Below, in pieces: positions 1 through 64,000 of a DNA stretch of 64,000 nucleotides (positions are counted from its first letter, which is position 1; each line of letters begins with the position of its first letter). The stretch spans positions 1,447 to 65,446 of the forward strand of contig JAZKYS010000019.1 in assembly GCA_045612285.1 (NCBI GenBank), written 5' to 3'. This stretch comes from Elusimicrobiaceae bacterium. GTDB taxonomy: Bacteria; Elusimicrobiota; Elusimicrobia; Elusimicrobiales; Elusimicrobiaceae. The translations under genes were made by a program, and so were the position numbers. A model generated the notes under the pieces. That model searched no databases. It was given only the letters and a program-made list of their open reading frames with translations, and had not been told where the DNA came from.

Positions 1-215
1 CGAAAAACGGTATGGGCTCTTGTCAAAACGGTATTGCCTATTATACCGCAAAAAAAGGCTATACCTATGAACAAGTTTTAAAGAAATACCACCCTAATGC
101 CAAAGTAGGCGATTTTTCTTTAAATATGTTAAAACTGGCGGAAACTATACAAGACAGAGAAGAACTTGAAAATAATTTATCCCAAGCCGAAAATAGACTA
201 AAACAAATGATATAA
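1..215 (+). CDS. C-terminal fragment of a SpoIID/LytB-domain-like protein (5' end outside window)
   Basis: Frame open from window edge. The ...SCQNGIAYYTAKKGYTYEQVLKKYHPNAKV end resembles the conserved MSQxGA...Y..IL..YY end of SpoIID domains. Confidence 0.4.
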   Translation, partial: KNGMGSCQNGIAYYTAKKGYTYEQVLKKYHPNAKVGDFSLNMLKLAETIQDREELENNLSQAENRLKQMI

Positions 216-3084: not shown

Positions 3085-3093
3085 TGATATACT
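3085..3093 (+). promoter_or_regulatory. Extended -10 promoter element (TGaTATACT) driving leader RNA copy A
   Basis: The same TGnTATACT lies at the same distance from the conserved 5' hairpin in all three leader copies. It resembles the AAATTT(A/G)nTATAAT motif upstream of smc, the activase and clpC. Confidence 0.55.
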
Positions 3094-3098
3094 AAAAA

Positions 3099-3340
3099 TG
3101 TAAGTATTTTTTTACTTACATAAAAATTTAATCTGTTTTTGGATGCCGAAAGGCTGCTTTTACATAAGTAAAAGTGTATTCAAATCCCAAAACAGCTGTT
3201 ATAGGTGTATAACACAAAGTCTAATTAACTTTTGTGATATACGCTGAATGTTTGCATATGCAAACTACGGCTGTTATATTTAGGGCATTGAATACACTTA
3301 AATATAAAAGCCGTTTTTTATGCTCCGAAAACCTGTTTAA
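3099..3340 (+). ncRNA. Structured 5' leader RNA, copy A (candidate cis-regulatory RNA of pilin-like gene)
   Basis: 5' hairpin 3100-3106/3113-3119, then invariant TAAAAATTTAATCTGTTTTTGGA at 3121-3143. Hairpins at 3145-3154, 3157-3174, 3205-3242 and 3250-3265. Long-range pair 3174-3183/3288-3297, helix 3267-3281/3300-3314, closing pair 3133-3143/3324-3335. All helices covary with copies B and C. Confidence 0.7.
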
Positions 3341-3354
3341 AAGGAGTATAAAAA

Positions 3355-3873
3355 ATGAATATAGTTTCAAAAAAAACAAAAGGCTTTACCTTAATTGAAT
3401 TATTAGTTGTAGTTTTGATTATCGGTATTTTGGCGGCTATTGCCGTGCCGCAATATGAAAAAGCTGTTTTAAATAGCAGATTAACACAATATATTGTCTA
3501 TATGGATGCCTTAAGAAAAGGTGCTGACCTTTATTATTTAGCTAATGGTAAAATGACTAATGATGTCCGGGATCTTGATATAGATGTTGAACCCAATGCG
3601 ATAACATTTAAAACTTCAACTATATCCCCCCTCGCAACGGGTGTTTTTTTTAAAGATGGACTTGAGTGTATGGTCCACTTTCAAGACATAGCTTGCCTTG
3701 GAAAAGATTTCTATTTACTATCTAGTCATTCCTGGAGAAATACTCCTTTTCAAGGAATTATTTGTTTTGGAAAAAATAACAAAAAAGCAGAAGAAATTTG
3801 TAAATCAAAATCCAATGGGATATCTGTTTATTATCACGAAAATTTCCAATCAAATGGATATAGGCTACAATAA
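3355..3873 (+). CDS. Prepilin-type N-terminal cleavage/methylation domain protein (type IV pilin/pseudopilin-like)
   Basis: KG|[24 protein letters not shown] motif, SD AAGGAG at 3341-3346, and a divergent Cys-containing C-terminal domain. Confidence 0.85.
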   Translation: MNIVSKKTKGFTLIELLVVVLIIGILAAIAVPQYEKAVLNSRLTQYIVYMDALRKGADLYYLANGKMTNDVRDLDIDVEPNAITFKTSTISPLATGVFFKDGLECMVHFQDIACLGKDFYLLSSHSWRNTPFQGIICFGKNNKKAEEICKSKSNGISVYYHENFQSNGYRLQ

Positions 3874-13450: not shown

Positions 13451-13637
13451 ATATAAAAATATTCTCTAATCTTATTTTATCATTTTTGGCTTTTACTTGC
13501 TAGATTTTATTTCATCTCATCATCCTACAAAAATGTTATAGCTTTTACTTTGTAAAAGTAATTTATTTACTACTGTTTTTACAAATATCTTATTTTTTCA
13601 GTCGGTAATATTTTTATTTATCGTCGTAGAAATTGAC

Positions 13638-13663
13638 TTGATTTTCAAAAAAAAAAATAAAAT
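13638..13663 (+). promoter_or_regulatory. Candidate promoter with A11 tract in spacer (TTGATT-ttc-A11-TAAAAT)
   Basis: -35-like TTGATT at 13638-13643, A11 at 13647-13657, -10-like TAAAAT at 13658-13663. Near-identical block at 32121-32147 upstream of another pilin-like gene. Confidence 0.5.
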
Positions 13664-13724: not shown

Positions 13725-13751
13725 AAATATAAGGAAAAGGAGAAAATAAAA

Positions 13752-23522: not shown

Positions 23523-23550
23523 AGTTTATCAAAAAAAAAAAAATACACAA
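23523..23550 (-). promoter_or_regulatory. Candidate promoter with T13 tract in spacer (TTGTGT-a-T13-ga-TAAACT on minus strand)
   Basis: -35-like at 23545-23550, homopolymer at 23531-23543, -10-like at 23523-23528, spacer 16 nt. About 38 nt upstream of the pilin-like start. Homologous block at 32032-32058. Confidence 0.5.
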
Positions 23551-31891: not shown

Positions 31892-32031
31892 ACTTTTTTA
31901 CCTCTTTTTTTCTTTTGTTCAATCGTCATTCCGGAAGGTTTTTGTCCGGAATCTCTACCGATTTTATTTTTTAAAAAATAGGAAGAGATACTGAGCAAAA
32001 ACTCCTCAGTATGACTTTATTTCATAAAGTC

Positions 32032-32058: not shown

Positions 32059-32120
32059 GCGCCCTGCTAAGACGAAGAAAAAAGCAAAAAAAGAAGAAAT
32101 ATCGTCGTAAAACAAAAAAC

Positions 32121-32147
32121 TTGATTTTCAAAAAAAAAAAAATAAAA
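32121..32147 (+). promoter_or_regulatory. Candidate promoter with A12 tract in spacer (TTGATT-ttc-A12-TAAAAT)
   Basis: TTGATT at 32121-32126, A12 at 32130-32141, TAAAAT at 32142-32147. The upstream ATCGTCGTA block is shared with 13621-13663. Confidence 0.5.
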
Positions 32148-32190
32148 TTTAATTTGTTAAGTCAATAAAACAATAGGAGAAAAAACATTT

Positions 32191-42521: not shown

Positions 42522-42551
42522 AAAAAGCACTTCTTTTTGAGAAGTGCTTTT
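42522..42551. terminator. Bidirectional intrinsic terminator (3' of tRNA-Ala; also 3' of element R3)
   Basis: AAAAA-GCACTTC-tttttga-GAAGTGC-TTTT. Confidence 0.75.
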
Positions 42552-42555
42552 AAAA

Positions 42556-42631
42556 TGGTGGACCTGAACGGGATCGAACCGATGACCTCCTGCATGCCAT
42601 GCAGGCGCTCTCCCAGCTGAGCTACAGGCCC
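42556..42631 (-). tRNA. tRNA-Ala (anticodon GGC), CCA encoded
   Basis: Manual cloverleaf: GGGCCTG acceptor with G3:U70 Ala identity pair, anticodon stem CCTGC/GCAGG with loop ATGGCAT, T loop TTCGATC, and 3' ACCA. Confidence 0.9.
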
Positions 42632-42695: not shown

Positions 42696-42704
42696 TGATA
42701 TACT
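42696..42704 (+). promoter_or_regulatory. Extended -10 promoter element (TGaTATACT) driving leader RNA copy B
   Basis: Same motif and spacing to the 5' hairpin as copies A and C. Confidence 0.55.
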
Positions 42705-42709
42705 AAAAT

Positions 42710-42975
42710 TGTAAGTAGTTTTTACTTACATAAAAATTTAATCTGTTTTTGGAACCTTGTAAAAACAAGGATAGCTTTTGAGAAATCAAAAGCCATAGCG
42801 AAGTCCAAGAACAGCTCGTTATTAGGCACAGGACAAACGGCTTAATTACCCGCTTGTTTTGTGCCGAGTGTTTGCCGTTCTTTTAGAACGGCAAACTACG
42901 GCTGTTATATTTTTTGGTCACTTCGCTAGGCTAAAATATAGCAGCCGTCTTTCATAAGTTCCAAAAACAGTAAGA
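42710..42975 (+). ncRNA. Structured 5' leader RNA, copy B (candidate cis-regulatory RNA of pilin-like gene)
   Basis: 5' hairpin 42711-42729, invariant 23-mer 42731-42753. Hairpins 42755-42770, 42774-42793, 42825-42865 and 42870-42896. Long-range pair 42793-42804/42920-42930, helix 42898-42913/42933-42948, and 12/12 closing helix 42743-42754/42959-42970. Confidence 0.75.
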
Positions 42976-42984
42976 GAGGAATTT

Positions 42985-43518
42985 ATGAAAAACAAAAAAG
43001 GCTTTACTCTTATTGAAATACTTGTTGTTGTTTTAATTATCGGTATTTTAGCAGCGATAGCTGTGCCGCAATATCAAAAATCAGTATGGAAAAGTAGGGC
43101 TACAGGTATGCTCTTTAATTTAAAATCACTACATGAAGCAGTTAAAGTTTATCAATTAGCAAATAGCGCAAATCCATCAAATATAAATAAATTAGATATT
43201 TCCCTTAATAATTATAAACAAGCTTGTGTAAACACAGGACCGAGTTTTACCGAATCATCTTGTAAGGCAGATAAATATTCAAATTTATTTCTAAACATAA
43301 ATACAAACACTGGAAAAGGAACCGGAGAAGTTTTTTCACAATTTAATATAGGTCCTTATAAAAGTGGCGGTTTTTCAATAGCAGGTAATACTGTTATATG
43401 TTGGGAATACCCCTCATATATTAGTTTGAAAGGAGATTTTTGTAAAAAAATAATGGGTTGCCAACCAAGATCAGGCATAACAACTGAAGGCAGGCAATTC
43501 CTCTGTCCAAATTTATAA
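42985..43518 (+). CDS. Prepilin-type N-terminal cleavage/methylation domain protein (pilin-like)
   Basis: MKNKKG|[24 protein letters not shown] with SD AGAGAGGA. Confidence 0.85.
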   Translation: MKNKKGFTLIEILVVVLIIGILAAIAVPQYQKSVWKSRATGMLFNLKSLHEAVKVYQLANSANPSNINKLDISLNNYKQACVNTGPSFTESSCKADKYSNLFLNINTNTGKGTGEVFSQFNIGPYKSGGFSIAGNTVICWEYPSYISLKGDFCKKIMGCQPRSGITTEGRQFLCPNL

Positions 43519-63781: not shown

Positions 63782-63790
63782 TGTTATACT
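63782..63790 (+). promoter_or_regulatory. Extended -10 promoter element (TGtTATACT) driving leader RNA copy C
   Basis: Same motif and spacing as copies A and B. Begins 4 nt after the macro-domain stop codon. Confidence 0.5.
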
Positions 63791-63795
63791 ATAAG

Positions 63796-64000
63796 TGTAA
63801 GTAGCAATACTTACCTAAAAATTTAATCTGTTTTTGGAACCTTGTTTGTAGAACAAGGAGAACTTTTGAGAAATCAAAAGTGCTATGAGGTCCGAAAGCA
63901 GTCGTATTATAAATATACAGAAAAGTATATTTTATTCTGCCGTCTTTTTAGGCGGCAGATACGGCTGTTTATATTTGGGTTCCCTCATAGCACTCAAATA
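63796..64000 (+). ncRNA. Structured 5' leader RNA, copy C (3' end truncated by window)
   Basis: 5' hairpin 63797-63803/63808-63814 with GCAA loop, invariant 23-mer 63816-63838. Hairpins 63840-63858, 63862-63881, 63909-63935 and 63937-63958. Long-range pair 63880-63890/63983-63993. Confidence 0.7.

What the first reader, a model, noticed from the sequence alone, without database searches (positions are those of the whole stretch)
42696..42984. Leader copy B shows mutually exclusive pairings and a pseudoknot-like topology, consistent with a switch
The invariant CTGTTTTTGGAA (42743-42754) is 12/12 complementary to TTCCAAAAACAG (42959-42970), which lies just upstream of the SD AGAGAGGA. This would close a domain of about 215 nt. 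The same segment can also pair, with G-U pairs, with the proximal TCCAAGAACAG (42804-42814). Both partner sites exist in copy A as well (3185-3195 and 3324-3335), and the proximal one exists in copy C (63891-63901). A second duplication also gives two candidate partners for one strand. GCTCGTTAT after the proximal site mimics the 5' strand of helix Pe, ACGGCTGTTATATTTT (42898-42913) : AAAATATAGCAGCCGT (42933-42948). The 3' strand of Px (42920-42930) lies inside the Pe loop, so Px and Pe either form a pseudoknot or exclude each other. In copy A, Pe is followed immediately by TTTTTT (3314-3319), which looks like an intrinsic terminator. Together this resembles an attenuator or riboswitch expression platform. 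The ligand or protein partner is unknown.
Basis: inference. Interest (0 to 1): 0.78.

Follow-up and report, generated by a model that had tools for sequence, protein, structure and literature searches.

The report
Structured leader RNA before pilin genes
This is one copy of an apparently undescribed, highly structured RNA leader found many times per genome in gut Elusimicrobia, in front of pilin-like and other cell-surface genes, and its anatomy fits a switch that controls both transcription termination and translation.

Summary
Copy B is one of three copies in the window. At least 137 copies occur in 44 Elusimicrobiaceae/Elusimicrobiales assemblies. The core is about 200 nt, and no Rfam 15 model or searchable paper matches it.

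- **Architecture:** an invariant 5' strand S1 (CUGUUUUUGGA) closes a three-way junction (P1, P2, P3). Hairpins P4 and P5 follow, then a long hairpin Pe with a U-run, which is an intrinsic terminator.
- **Pseudoknot:** the strand just 5' of the P1 3' strand pairs with the Pe loop (Px). All nine counted Px pairs covary.
- **Antiterminator:** the P1 3' strand plus its tail can instead pair with the Pe 5' strand, contiguous with Px. This helix is as stable as P1.
- **Translation:** the roughly 25 nt after the terminator pair with the SD/AUG of the downstream gene, in a copy-specific way. They overlap the distal S1 complement, which about half of the copies carry.

Best reading: a cis-acting attenuator coupled to translational control of pilin-like and envelope genes, with an unknown effector. 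The switching itself is inferred. The alternative helices rest on compatibility, not covariation, because their strands are invariant.

The parts
42696..42704 (+). Putative extended -10 promoter, TGATATACT (TG at 42696-97, TATACT at 42699-704). No TSS was mapped.
   Evidence: Read from the sequence. Equivalent TGnTATAAT/TATACT boxes lie upstream of most homologues. The tool's -35/-10 scan did not call it.
42710..42730 (+). P0, a 5' hairpin (42710-17 / 42723-30). It is present in window copies A, B and C and in some lineages, and absent in many homologues.
   Evidence: MFE. Hairpins of different sequence sit at the same place in other genomes.
42731..42742 (+). Conserved A(A/C)AAUUU-NN tract just 5' of S1.
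   Evidence: Nearly invariant columns in A2. CAATTT co-occurs with a downstream A[AG]TTG at +22..28 after Pe (38/68 against 1/33). This may be a lineage effect.
42743..42754 (+). S1: invariant CUGUUUUUGGA(A). It is the 5' strand of P1 and the candidate partner of the distal site.
   Evidence: Identical in 3/3 window copies and in nearly all of 128 parsed copies.
42755..42770 (+). P2 hairpin (42755-60 / 42765-70), usually capped by a GNRA-like or GNRGA loop in the family.
   Evidence: In 115/124 copies the segment between S1 and Px folds as exactly two hairpins, z = -3.3.
42774..42793 (+). P3 hairpin (42774-81 / 42786-93), variable in sequence.
   Evidence: (I6).
42793..42804 (+). Px 5' strand (CCAUAGCGAAGU). 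It pairs with the Pe loop.
   Evidence: I7. Cognate duplex -15.9 against non-cognate -6.7 kcal/mol. All 9 counted pairs change on both sides.
42804..42814 (+). S2: the proximal P1 3' strand (UCCAAGAACAG).
   Evidence: 95.7% paired. Variation is almost only A<->G opposite U and C<->U opposite G, plus two compensatory changes.
42810..42818 (+). Antiterminator strand: the end of S2 plus its tail (AACAGCUCG). It is complementary to the Pe 5' strand.
   Evidence: Tail columns 113/114 are C or U only, both opposite G.
42825..42865 (+). P4 long hairpin (42825-40 / 42850-65) with an interchangeable apical module.
   Evidence: all 14 pairs have compensatory changes and 92% of cells are paired.
42870..42896 (+). 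P5 hairpin (42870-81 / 42885-96).
   Evidence: (I5) and 52: all 9 pairs have compensatory changes and 95% of cells are paired.
42898..42948 (+). Pe terminator hairpin (42898-919 / 42929-48). Its loop carries the Px 3' strand (42920-30).
   Evidence: (I2). The base of the stem is 98% paired across the family.
42949..42955 (+). Degenerate U-tract (CUUUCAU) in copy B. In the family it is usually U4-U6.
   Evidence: at least 4 T in the first 6 nt after Pe in 114/128 copies.
42950..42962 (+). Anti-RBS strand. It pairs with 42978-42990 (SD GGA through AUG and the first codons).
   Evidence: MFE. I3 is 16 nt at 88%. Family cognate -12.2 against non-cognate -8.5 kcal/mol, p = 2e-16.
42959..42970 (+). 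S3: the distal complement of S1 (UUCCAAAAACAG). It overlaps the anti-RBS strand.
   Evidence: I1. Family enrichment. Overlap with the anti-RBS strand.
42974..42990 (+). SD (GAGAGGA, 42974-80), the start codon (42985-87) and the first codons. This is the 3' strand of the sequestering hairpin.
42985..43518 (+). Downstream gene: a type IV pilin-like protein (N-terminal methylation motif, KGFTLIEILVVV).
   Evidence: Pfam PF07963, E = 8e-10.
3085..3354 (+). Copy A of the leader. S1 3133-43, S2 3185-95, Px 3171-81 / 3289-99, Pe 3267-3314, U6 3314-19, distal site 3324-35. It precedes the pilin-like ORF 3355-3873.
63785..64000 (+). Copy C of the leader, cut by the end of the window inside Pe. S1 63828-38, S2 63891-901.

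Best explanation
Copy B is a member of a previously uncatalogued family of structured 5' leader RNAs of Elusimicrobiaceae. The core is about 200 nt, or about 270 nt with the 5' hairpin and the ribosome-binding region. The family sits in front of pilin-like and other envelope genes.

I propose that it works in cis as a two-level switch.

- **Fold T (off).** S1 pairs with S2 to close the P1-P2-P3 junction. The strand next to S2 kisses the loop of Pe (Px). Pe plus the U-run terminates transcription. In any read-through transcript, the roughly 25 nt after the terminator pair with the SD/AUG and block initiation.
- **Fold A (on).** Before the Pe 3' strand is made, the helix nucleated by Px extends into S2 and its tail, which pair with the Pe 5' strand. 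This displaces S1 and prevents the terminator. The freed S1 can then pair with the distal site S3. S3 overlaps the anti-RBS strand, so the ribosome-binding site opens.
- **What decides.** An unknown factor shifts the P1 against antiterminator balance. It could be a metabolite or second messenger, an RNA-binding protein, or a specialised elongation factor.

Shown here: the family, its helices, the pseudoknot, the terminator signature, the RBS-sequestering helix and the gene association. Inferred: that the alternative helices form in vivo, the direction of the switch, and the existence of an effector.
For: - **Family and structure.**
  - nhmmer found 137 copies, in 44 assemblies by my count.
  - P1, P4, P5, Pe and Px together are 92.3% paired, against 76.8% in shuffles and 36-48% when slid. 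The covariation score is 0.489 against 0.205.
  - Px cognate -15.9 against non-cognate -6.7 kcal/mol.
  - P2 and P3 are present in 115/124 copies.
- **The structure is on the sense RNA strand.** The one-sided changes are U-A to U-G and G-C to G-U, which would be mismatches on the other strand.
- **Terminator.** Pe is followed by at least 4 U in 6 nt in 114/128 copies.
- **Antiterminator.**
  - S2 plus tail against the Pe 5' strand averages -14.7 kcal/mol (shuffles -6.8). P1 averages -13.2.
  - 94.8% of cells are paired, against 23-65% when slid. The tail positions are restricted to C/U opposite G.
- **Bistability in silico.**
  - The nested MFE of copy A is the Px-plus-antiterminator fold; that of copy B is P1 plus Pe.
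  - The nascent B transcript ending at 42932 flips to the antiterminator fold.
  - Across the family, 99 copies give fold T and 21 give fold A.
- **Translation arm.**
  - Post-terminator segment against its own SD/AUG: -12.2 against -8.5 kcal/mol for non-cognate pairs, p = 2e-16, best of 21 in 31% of copies.
  - In B the two helices use the same arm (I1 and I3).
  - Forcing S1:S3 costs only 4 kcal/mol.
  - S1 complements of 10/12 or better occur in 50/101 copies against 16.6 in shuffles, clustered 8-14 nt after Pe.
- **Sequence invariance sits in the multi-partner strands.** The invariant columns are concentrated in S1, S2, the Pe 5' strand and the Pe 3' strand.
- **Gene context.** 118/125 copies have an SD-ATG ORF on the same strand, at a median of 51 nt. 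Most are prepilin-type. The rest include GT8, GT2, pyruvyl transferase, acyltransferase-3 and an OMP beta-barrel.
Against: - There are no expression, probing or termination data.
- The antiterminator and S1:S3 helices have no covariation support, because S1 and the Pe 5' strand are invariant. The shuffle control is therefore uninformative.
- In the rare S1 variants (L100 4799, L016 609), S2 shows a compensatory change but S3 does not. That is only two cases.
- A fully wobble-compatible distal 10-mer is present in only 13-29% of copies.
- With Px counted, fold T should be the clear ground state of the finished RNA. Fold A must therefore be kinetic or factor-dependent.
- Copy B has a weak U-tract.
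- Conserved nucleotides lie mostly in helices, not in junctions. That is unusual for a metabolite aptamer.
- The search pattern required exact S1 and Pe 5' cores, which inflates their apparent invariance. However, copies found only by nhmmer also keep them.
- The TSS is not known.
Confidence: 0.55

Rival explanations
1. It is a stand-alone, stable, structured small RNA of about 200 nt that ends at Pe. It has its own trans function, such as a protein sponge or scaffold, or cross-talk between paralogous loci. Expression of the downstream gene is only incidental read-through.
For: - A strong, conserved terminator closes a compact, heavily base-paired RNA.
- There are many copies per genome with the same invariant single-strand-capable S1.
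- With Px counted, the finished RNA should sit stably in one fold.
Against: - Position and orientation are fixed immediately upstream of an ORF, at a median of 51 nt. I saw no obvious promoter in the spacers I read, and this was not scanned systematically.
- The sequence after the terminator co-varies with the SD/AUG of that ORF.
- An S1 complement follows the terminator in half of the copies.
- These features make sense only if the read-through transcript matters.
Confidence: 0.15
2. It is a static structured 5' UTR with no switch. The fold with pseudoknot protects the mRNA or sets a fixed, low level of read-through and translation. The alternative complementarities are by-products of U-rich and A-rich sequence.
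For: - The helices with true covariation (P4, P5, Px, and P2/P3) all belong to one fold.
- The alternative helices have only compatibility support.
- The nested MFE is fold T in 99/124 copies.
Against: - The strict sequence invariance of S1, S2 and both Pe strands, next to freely covarying helices, is hard to explain by structure alone.
- The tail after S2 is restricted to C/U opposite the Gs of the Pe 5' strand.
- The antiterminator is as stable as P1 and lies exactly contiguous with Px.
- A strong terminator between a promoter and its only gene implies regulated read-through.
Confidence: 0.2
3. It is a DNA-level repeat: a mobile promoter cassette, a MITE or a recombination site that spreads in front of surface-protein genes. 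It is not an RNA structure.
For: - It is multicopy and dispersed, and precedes variable surface genes.
- Other repeat elements occur in the same regions.
Against: - 35 of 50 pairs have compensatory changes.
- Px differs completely between copies yet stays complementary.
- The one-sided changes are G-U wobbles on the sense strand only.
- I noticed no terminal inverted repeats, target duplications or transposase genes. None of these was searched for specifically.
Confidence: 0.03

Closest known systems
Transcription-terminating riboswitch expression platforms, for example the cyclic-di-GMP riboswitches found upstream of type IV pilin genes in Clostridia (own knowledge)
   Same: - A long structured 5' leader whose closing helix P1 competes with an antiterminator for a shared strand.
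- An intrinsic terminator follows.
- There are many copies per genome.
- It is associated with pilin and surface genes.
   Different: - No sequence or structure match to any Rfam riboswitch.
- It is larger, with five hairpins plus a pseudoknot into the terminator loop.
- The invariant nucleotides lie in the switching helices rather than in a junction pocket.
- The ligand is unknown and may not exist.
Classical four-segment attenuators (trp-type 1:2 / 3:4 against 2:3; own knowledge)
   Same: The logic is the same. S1:S2 and Pe5':Pe3' (terminator) compete with S2:Pe5' (antiterminator).
   Different: - There is no conserved leader peptide. Only 19/125 copies have any SD+ATG ORF of at least 8 codons, and these are at scattered positions.
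- Ribosome stalling therefore cannot be the sensor.
- A pseudoknot (Px) tethers segments 2 and 3.
Pseudoknot-dependent riboswitches in which a long-range helix links the aptamer to the expression platform, for example ZTP, SAM-II and preQ1 classes (own knowledge)
   Same: A covarying long-range pseudoknot joins the sensor domain to the 3' regulatory element.
   Different: Here the pseudoknot strand lies in the terminator loop, not in its stem. It is compatible with both folds. It looks like a toehold for strand exchange rather than the switching helix itself.
SD-sequestering hairpins, translational riboswitch platforms and RNA thermometers (own knowledge)
   Same: A 13-bp hairpin covers the SD, the AUG and the first codons in copy B. 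It co-varies with the start region across copies.
   Different: - The sequestering strand begins in the terminator's U-tract.
- It overlaps a complement of the far-upstream S1, so opening would be driven by a pairing across about 200 nt.
Processive antitermination of surface-structure operons by NusG paralogues (RfaH/ops; UpxY in Bacteroides capsule loci; own knowledge)
   Same: - A regulon of pili, LPS/polysaccharide-modifying enzymes and outer-membrane proteins.
- Long leaders with an invariant sequence element before the first gene.
   Different: - No ops-like sequence was recognised.
- No NusG paralogue was looked for.
- This leader has an extensive covarying RNA fold, which those systems do not need.

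Membership tests
Any Rfam 15 family (riboswitches, leaders, sRNAs) | Score at or above the family's gathering threshold with its covariance model | tested here: not met
   Only tRNAs pass in the window and in 12 loci that hold leader copies. The best sub-threshold hits on copy B are microRNA-like noise with E of 0.24 or more.
Intrinsic (Rho-independent) terminator | Stable G+C-containing hairpin immediately followed by a U-run | tested here: met
   - Across the family, the Pe base is 98% paired.
- At least 4 U in the next 6 nt occur in 114/128 copies.
- Copy A has U6.
- Copy B meets this only partly (CUUUCAU).
- The simple scanner misses Pe because its loop exceeds 8 nt.
Riboswitch (metabolite-binding leader) | Conserved, covarying aptamer fold upstream of the regulated gene | tested here: met
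   Gene association.
Riboswitch (metabolite-binding leader) | Mutually exclusive terminator and antiterminator (or SD and anti-SD) pairings that share a strand with the aptamer | tested here: inconclusive
   The alternative helices are present, stable and positionally conserved. They are supported only by compatibility, because the strands are invariant.
Riboswitch (metabolite-binding leader) | Highly conserved unpaired nucleotides that form a ligand pocket, and direct ligand binding | not testable with these tools
   - The invariant columns lie mainly in S1, S2 and the Pe strands.
- The junction motifs (UUUAGG, GARUGUUU) are only moderately conserved.
- Binding needs in-line probing or ITC.
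Ribosome-mediated (leader-peptide) attenuator | Conserved short ORF with an SD that overlaps segment 1 | tested here: not met
   19/125 copies have an SD+ATG ORF of at least 8 codons, at scattered positions.
RNA pseudoknot (loop-to-distal-strand) | Covarying helix between a hairpin loop and a strand outside that hairpin | tested here: met
   Px: 9/9 pairs change on both sides, and 80% of cells are paired even in a sequence-only alignment.
Type IV pilin / pseudopilin (downstream gene) | N-terminal class III signal peptide with the G/FTLIE methylation motif | tested here: met
   PF07963 in ORFs 3355-3873 and 42985-43518. The motif is in the first 60 aa of 76/118 downstream ORFs, and further in for many others.

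The most novel reading that the evidence does not exclude
The leader is a new riboswitch class that senses a small molecule, most plausibly a second messenger governing surface structures. It uses an unusual mechanism. A hypervariable pseudoknot (Px) acts as a built-in toehold for strand displacement between P1 and the terminator stem. One ligand-dependent decision therefore sets both termination and, through the 200-nt S1:S3 pairing, translation of a whole regulon of pilins and envelope-modifying enzymes in Elusimicrobia.
Probability: 0.2. Interest if true: 0.85.

Novelty: new member of a known kind. Interest (0 to 1): 0.72.

Why it matters
- **An unstudied phylum.** Elusimicrobia are a poorly studied gut phylum with dozens of pilin-like genes per genome (own knowledge). 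Nothing is known about how those genes are controlled.
- **A testable handle.** A large, well-defined RNA element is shared by pilin, glycosyltransferase, acyltransferase and outer-membrane-protein genes. That gives a concrete way to study regulation of the cell surface in these bacteria.
- **A strong orphan candidate.** The evidence comprises 137 copies, heavy covariation, a pseudoknot and a terminator.
- **An unusual architecture.** A pseudoknot into the terminator loop lies contiguous with the antiterminator, and a translational arm is coupled to it. If confirmed, this would be an instructive variant of attenuation. Cultured strains (E. posterum, P. proximum) carry it, so experiments are feasible.

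Tried and rejected
- **Rfam.** Gathering and E-value searches on the window and on 12 other loci found nothing but tRNAs.
- **Literature.** Four searches (Elusimicrobia/Elusimicrobium with RNA motif, riboswitch, structured noncoding RNA, pilin) found nothing relevant.
- **Exact-protein look-up of pilin B.** It is not on record, so the source genome was not identified beyond its Elusimicrobiaceae-type leaders.
- **Promoter and terminator scanner.**
  - It did not call the extended -10 or Pe, because there is no -35 and the loop is too long.
  - I therefore judged these by eye and by family statistics.
- **Leader-peptide attenuation.** Rejected.
- **S1 pairing with the Pe 3' strand (a full four-strand exchange).** Weak at -4.7 kcal/mol, so rejected.
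This is specific to copy B. Family-wide, the segment mimics the Pe 3' strand.
- **RNAalifold on the MAFFT alignment.** It missed P2, P3, the Pe extension and Px because of misalignment. These were recovered by anchored parsing and duplex tests.
- **Extension of the distal helix (5' CAAUUU with downstream AAUUG).**
  - The association is strong.
  - It cannot be separated from lineage, and TACAAT could also be promoter sequence, so I left it tentative.
- **Not done.**
  - No covariance model was built.
  - No metagenome scan was run.

Full report
**1. Observation**

All stated facts hold.

- CTGTTTTTGGAA (42743-54) is the exact reverse complement of TTCCAAAAACAG (42959-70).
- In the whole window that 12-mer occurs exactly on the + strand only at 42959.
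- The inverted-repeat finder extends the match to 24 nt at 79% (42743-66 / 42947-70).
- The proximal partners (B 42804-14, A 3185-95, C 63891-901) exist.
- So do the Pe arms (42898-913 / 42933-48), the Px strands (42796-804 / 42920-28 perfect) and the T6 after Pe in copy A (3314-19).
- The three copies share an invariant 21-mer, AAAATTTAATCTGTTTTTGGA. Between the conserved blocks they differ by compensatory changes.

**2. What it is**

No Rfam 15 model matches, either at gathering thresholds or at E up to 10. Twelve other loci carrying copies also give nothing.

- 111 of the 120 loci are Elusimicrobiaceae or Elusimicrobiales assemblies. These include the cultured Elusimicrobium posterum Dip510 and Parelusimicrobium proximum Dip518. 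The other nine are chance hits.
- An HMM built from these found 137 copies in the loci plus the window. Some lack the exact pattern.
- Single MAGs contribute more than ten copies.
- 118 of 125 non-redundant copies are followed on the same strand, at a median of 51 nt, by an SD-ATG ORF.
- 76 of the 118 ORFs have a prepilin motif within 60 residues, and many others have it further in.
- The remainder include three GT8 and one GT2 glycosyltransferase, a polysaccharide pyruvyl transferase, an acyltransferase-3, an OMP beta-barrel and a Zn-ribbon membrane protein.

In the window, ORFs 3355-3873 and 42985-43518 carry PF07963. Four other pilin-like genes in the window lack the leader.

**3. Anatomy (copy B coordinates)**

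| Element | Coordinates | Note |
|---|---|---|
| Putative extended -10 | 42696-704 | TGATATACT |
| P0 | 42710-17 / 42723-30 | 5' hairpin |
| S1 | 42743-53 | pairs with S2 to form P1 |
| S2 | 42804-14 | P1 3' strand |
| P2 | 42755-70 | enclosed by P1 |
| P3 | 42774-93 | enclosed by P1 |
| P4 | 42825-65 | long hairpin |
| P5 | 42870-96 | hairpin |
| Pe | 42898-919 / 42929-48 | terminator hairpin |
| Px | 42793-804 / 42920-30 | joins the strand next to S2 to the Pe loop |

On the 125-copy alignment A2 the combined structure is 92.3% paired. Shuffles give 76.8% and slid partners give 36-48%. The covariation score is 0.489 against 0.205.

- P4, P5 and Px have compensatory changes at every pair.
- The Px cognate duplex averages -15.9 kcal/mol against -6.7 for non-cognate partners, and is the best of 21 in 88% of copies.
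- P2 and P3 form in 115/124 copies.
- P1 and the base of Pe barely vary. What variation exists is U-A to U-G or G-C to G-U on the sense strand. This places the structure on the RNA and rules out a purely DNA-level repeat.
- Pe is followed by at least 4 U in 6 nt in 114/128 copies. Copy B has the degenerate CUUUCAU.
- There is no conserved leader peptide.

**4. Alternative pairings**

*(a) Antiterminator.*
- The end of S2 plus its tail (AACAG-YYG) is complementary to the Pe 5' strand (CGGCUGUU), and further pairing continues into Px.
- It averages -14.7 kcal/mol against -6.8 for shuffles and -13.2 for P1.
- 94.8% of cells are paired, against 23-65% when slid.
- The two tail positions opposite G are C or U in 125/125 and 120/125 copies.
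- Because the Pe 5' strand is invariant, there is no covariation test.
- The nested MFE of copy A is this fold.
- The nascent copy B transcript ending at 42932 also adopts it.
- For the finished RNA the P1-plus-Pe fold is the MFE in 99/124 copies, even without counting Px.

*(b) RBS sequestration.*
- In copy B, 42950-62 pairs with 42978-90, which covers the SD GGA, the AUG and the first codons.
- Across 101 copies the post-terminator segment pairs better with its own start region than with those of other copies. The means are -12.2 against -8.5 kcal/mol, p = 2e-16, best of 21 in 31%.

*(c) Distal S1 complement.*
- It overlaps the anti-RBS strand. In B the arms of I1 and I3 coincide. Across the family, the two overlap by at least 3 nt in 92% of copies.
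- A complement of 10/12 or better occurs in 50/101 copies, against 16.6 in shuffles, clustered 8-14 nt after Pe.
- The mean duplex is -9.3 against -6.2 kcal/mol.
- Forcing it in copy B costs 4 kcal/mol.
- In two rare S1 variants, S2 carries a compensating change and S3 does not.

**5. Mechanism**

The best-supported reading is a cis-acting attenuator with a coupled translational arm.

- **Off state:** P1 plus Px plus Pe terminates transcription, and the anti-RBS hairpin silences any read-through.
- **On state:** the antiterminator, nucleated by Px, displaces S1 and prevents Pe. The free S1 then captures S3 and opens the RBS.
- **Why the invariance fits:** the strands that must serve two partners (S1, S2, Pe 5', Pe 3') are invariant, and they sit beside freely covarying helices. 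That is what such a design predicts.

The effector is unknown. The surface-structure regulon suggests a second messenger, an RNA-binding protein or a NusG-type factor. Confidence that this is a conserved structured leader is very high. Confidence in the switch as described is about 0.55.

Rivals:

| Rival reading | Confidence |
|---|---|
| Stand-alone sRNA | 0.15 |
| Static UTR | 0.2 |
| DNA repeat | 0.03 |

**6. Comparison and novelty**

- It works like a terminator/antiterminator riboswitch or a trp-type four-segment attenuator.
- It fails membership of every catalogued family and lacks a leader peptide.
- Four literature searches found no description.
- I class it as a new member of a known kind, namely an orphan attenuator or riboswitch candidate.
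- It has two unusual features: a pseudoknot into the terminator loop that is contiguous with the antiterminator, and a 200-nt pairing tied to RBS release.

**7. Caveats**

- The search pattern fixed the S1 and Pe 5' cores.
- The alignments are sequence-based.
- Pseudoknot energies were not modelled.
- The TSS is unmapped.
- No experiment exists.

Noticed in passing
window 13637-13663 and 32120-32148; also 23531-23543 (- strand): - Pilin-like genes that lack the leader (starts near 13743, 32191 and 23485-) share a different upstream motif.
- The motif is CTTGATTTTC, then a homopolymeric A-run (A11 in one copy, A13 in the other), then TAAAAT. It looks like a -35/-10 pair whose spacer is the A-run.
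- A T13 run precedes the third gene.
- The layout suggests slipped-strand phase variation.
   Followed up: partly
window 31927-31953; loci such as L114, L119, L037 and L007 downstream of the leader: - A REP-like hairpin, CATTCCGGAAGGTTTTTGTCCGGAATC, is present in the window.
- Related copies (CATTCCCGAA...TCGGGAATC) occur in other Elusimicrobiaceae genomes, often between the leader and the pilin coding region.
- There are 14 regex hits in the held sequence.
   Followed up: partly
L003 1766(-), L030 3681(+), L115 1429(-), L061, L112, L013 and others: - Many leader-associated pilin ORFs have 60-100 residues before the [11 protein letters not shown] cleavage motif.
- These extensions contain recurring peptide blocks such as VVICPPCGE and LWPLLPRLTAVLPPQGRE.
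- They look like repeat elements inserted in frame into the prepilin leader peptide, or start codons called too far upstream.
   Followed up: no
15 of 125 loci, 28-47 nt (rarely about 125 nt) after Pe, for example L117, L115, L013, L035: - A conserved small hairpin lies between the terminator and the SD, often preceded by AAATTGAAAT.
- Its forms are AGGTCAGG-N(4-7)-CCTGAC and AGGTTGGG...CCCAAC, so the stem covaries.
- Its function is unknown.
   Followed up: no
A2 columns about 137-152 (apex of P4); window 42838-42852: - The tip of P4 carries one of a small set of recurring modules.
- Examples are GGACUAAUUACCC, GGAACUUAUAAUCC, GGAAGUCAUGAGCC, GGACCUUCGAAACC, GGGUAGCUCCC and GGGCGGCCACCC.
- They appear to be swapped between copies within one genome, as if interchangeable tertiary-contact or protein-binding units.
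   Followed up: no
window 42523-42631 (- strand): A tRNA gene (42559-42631, -) with a terminator-like hairpin (42523-42551, -) lies immediately upstream of leader B. The leader promoter therefore sits in a short divergent gap.
   Followed up: no
loci L050, L116, L038, L066, L009, L049, L025, L055: The same leader also precedes non-pilin envelope genes: GT8 and GT2 glycosyltransferases, a polysaccharide pyruvyl transferase, an acyltransferase-3, an OMP beta-barrel and a Zn-ribbon membrane protein. This points to a surface-structure regulon rather than a pilin-only element.
   Followed up: partly
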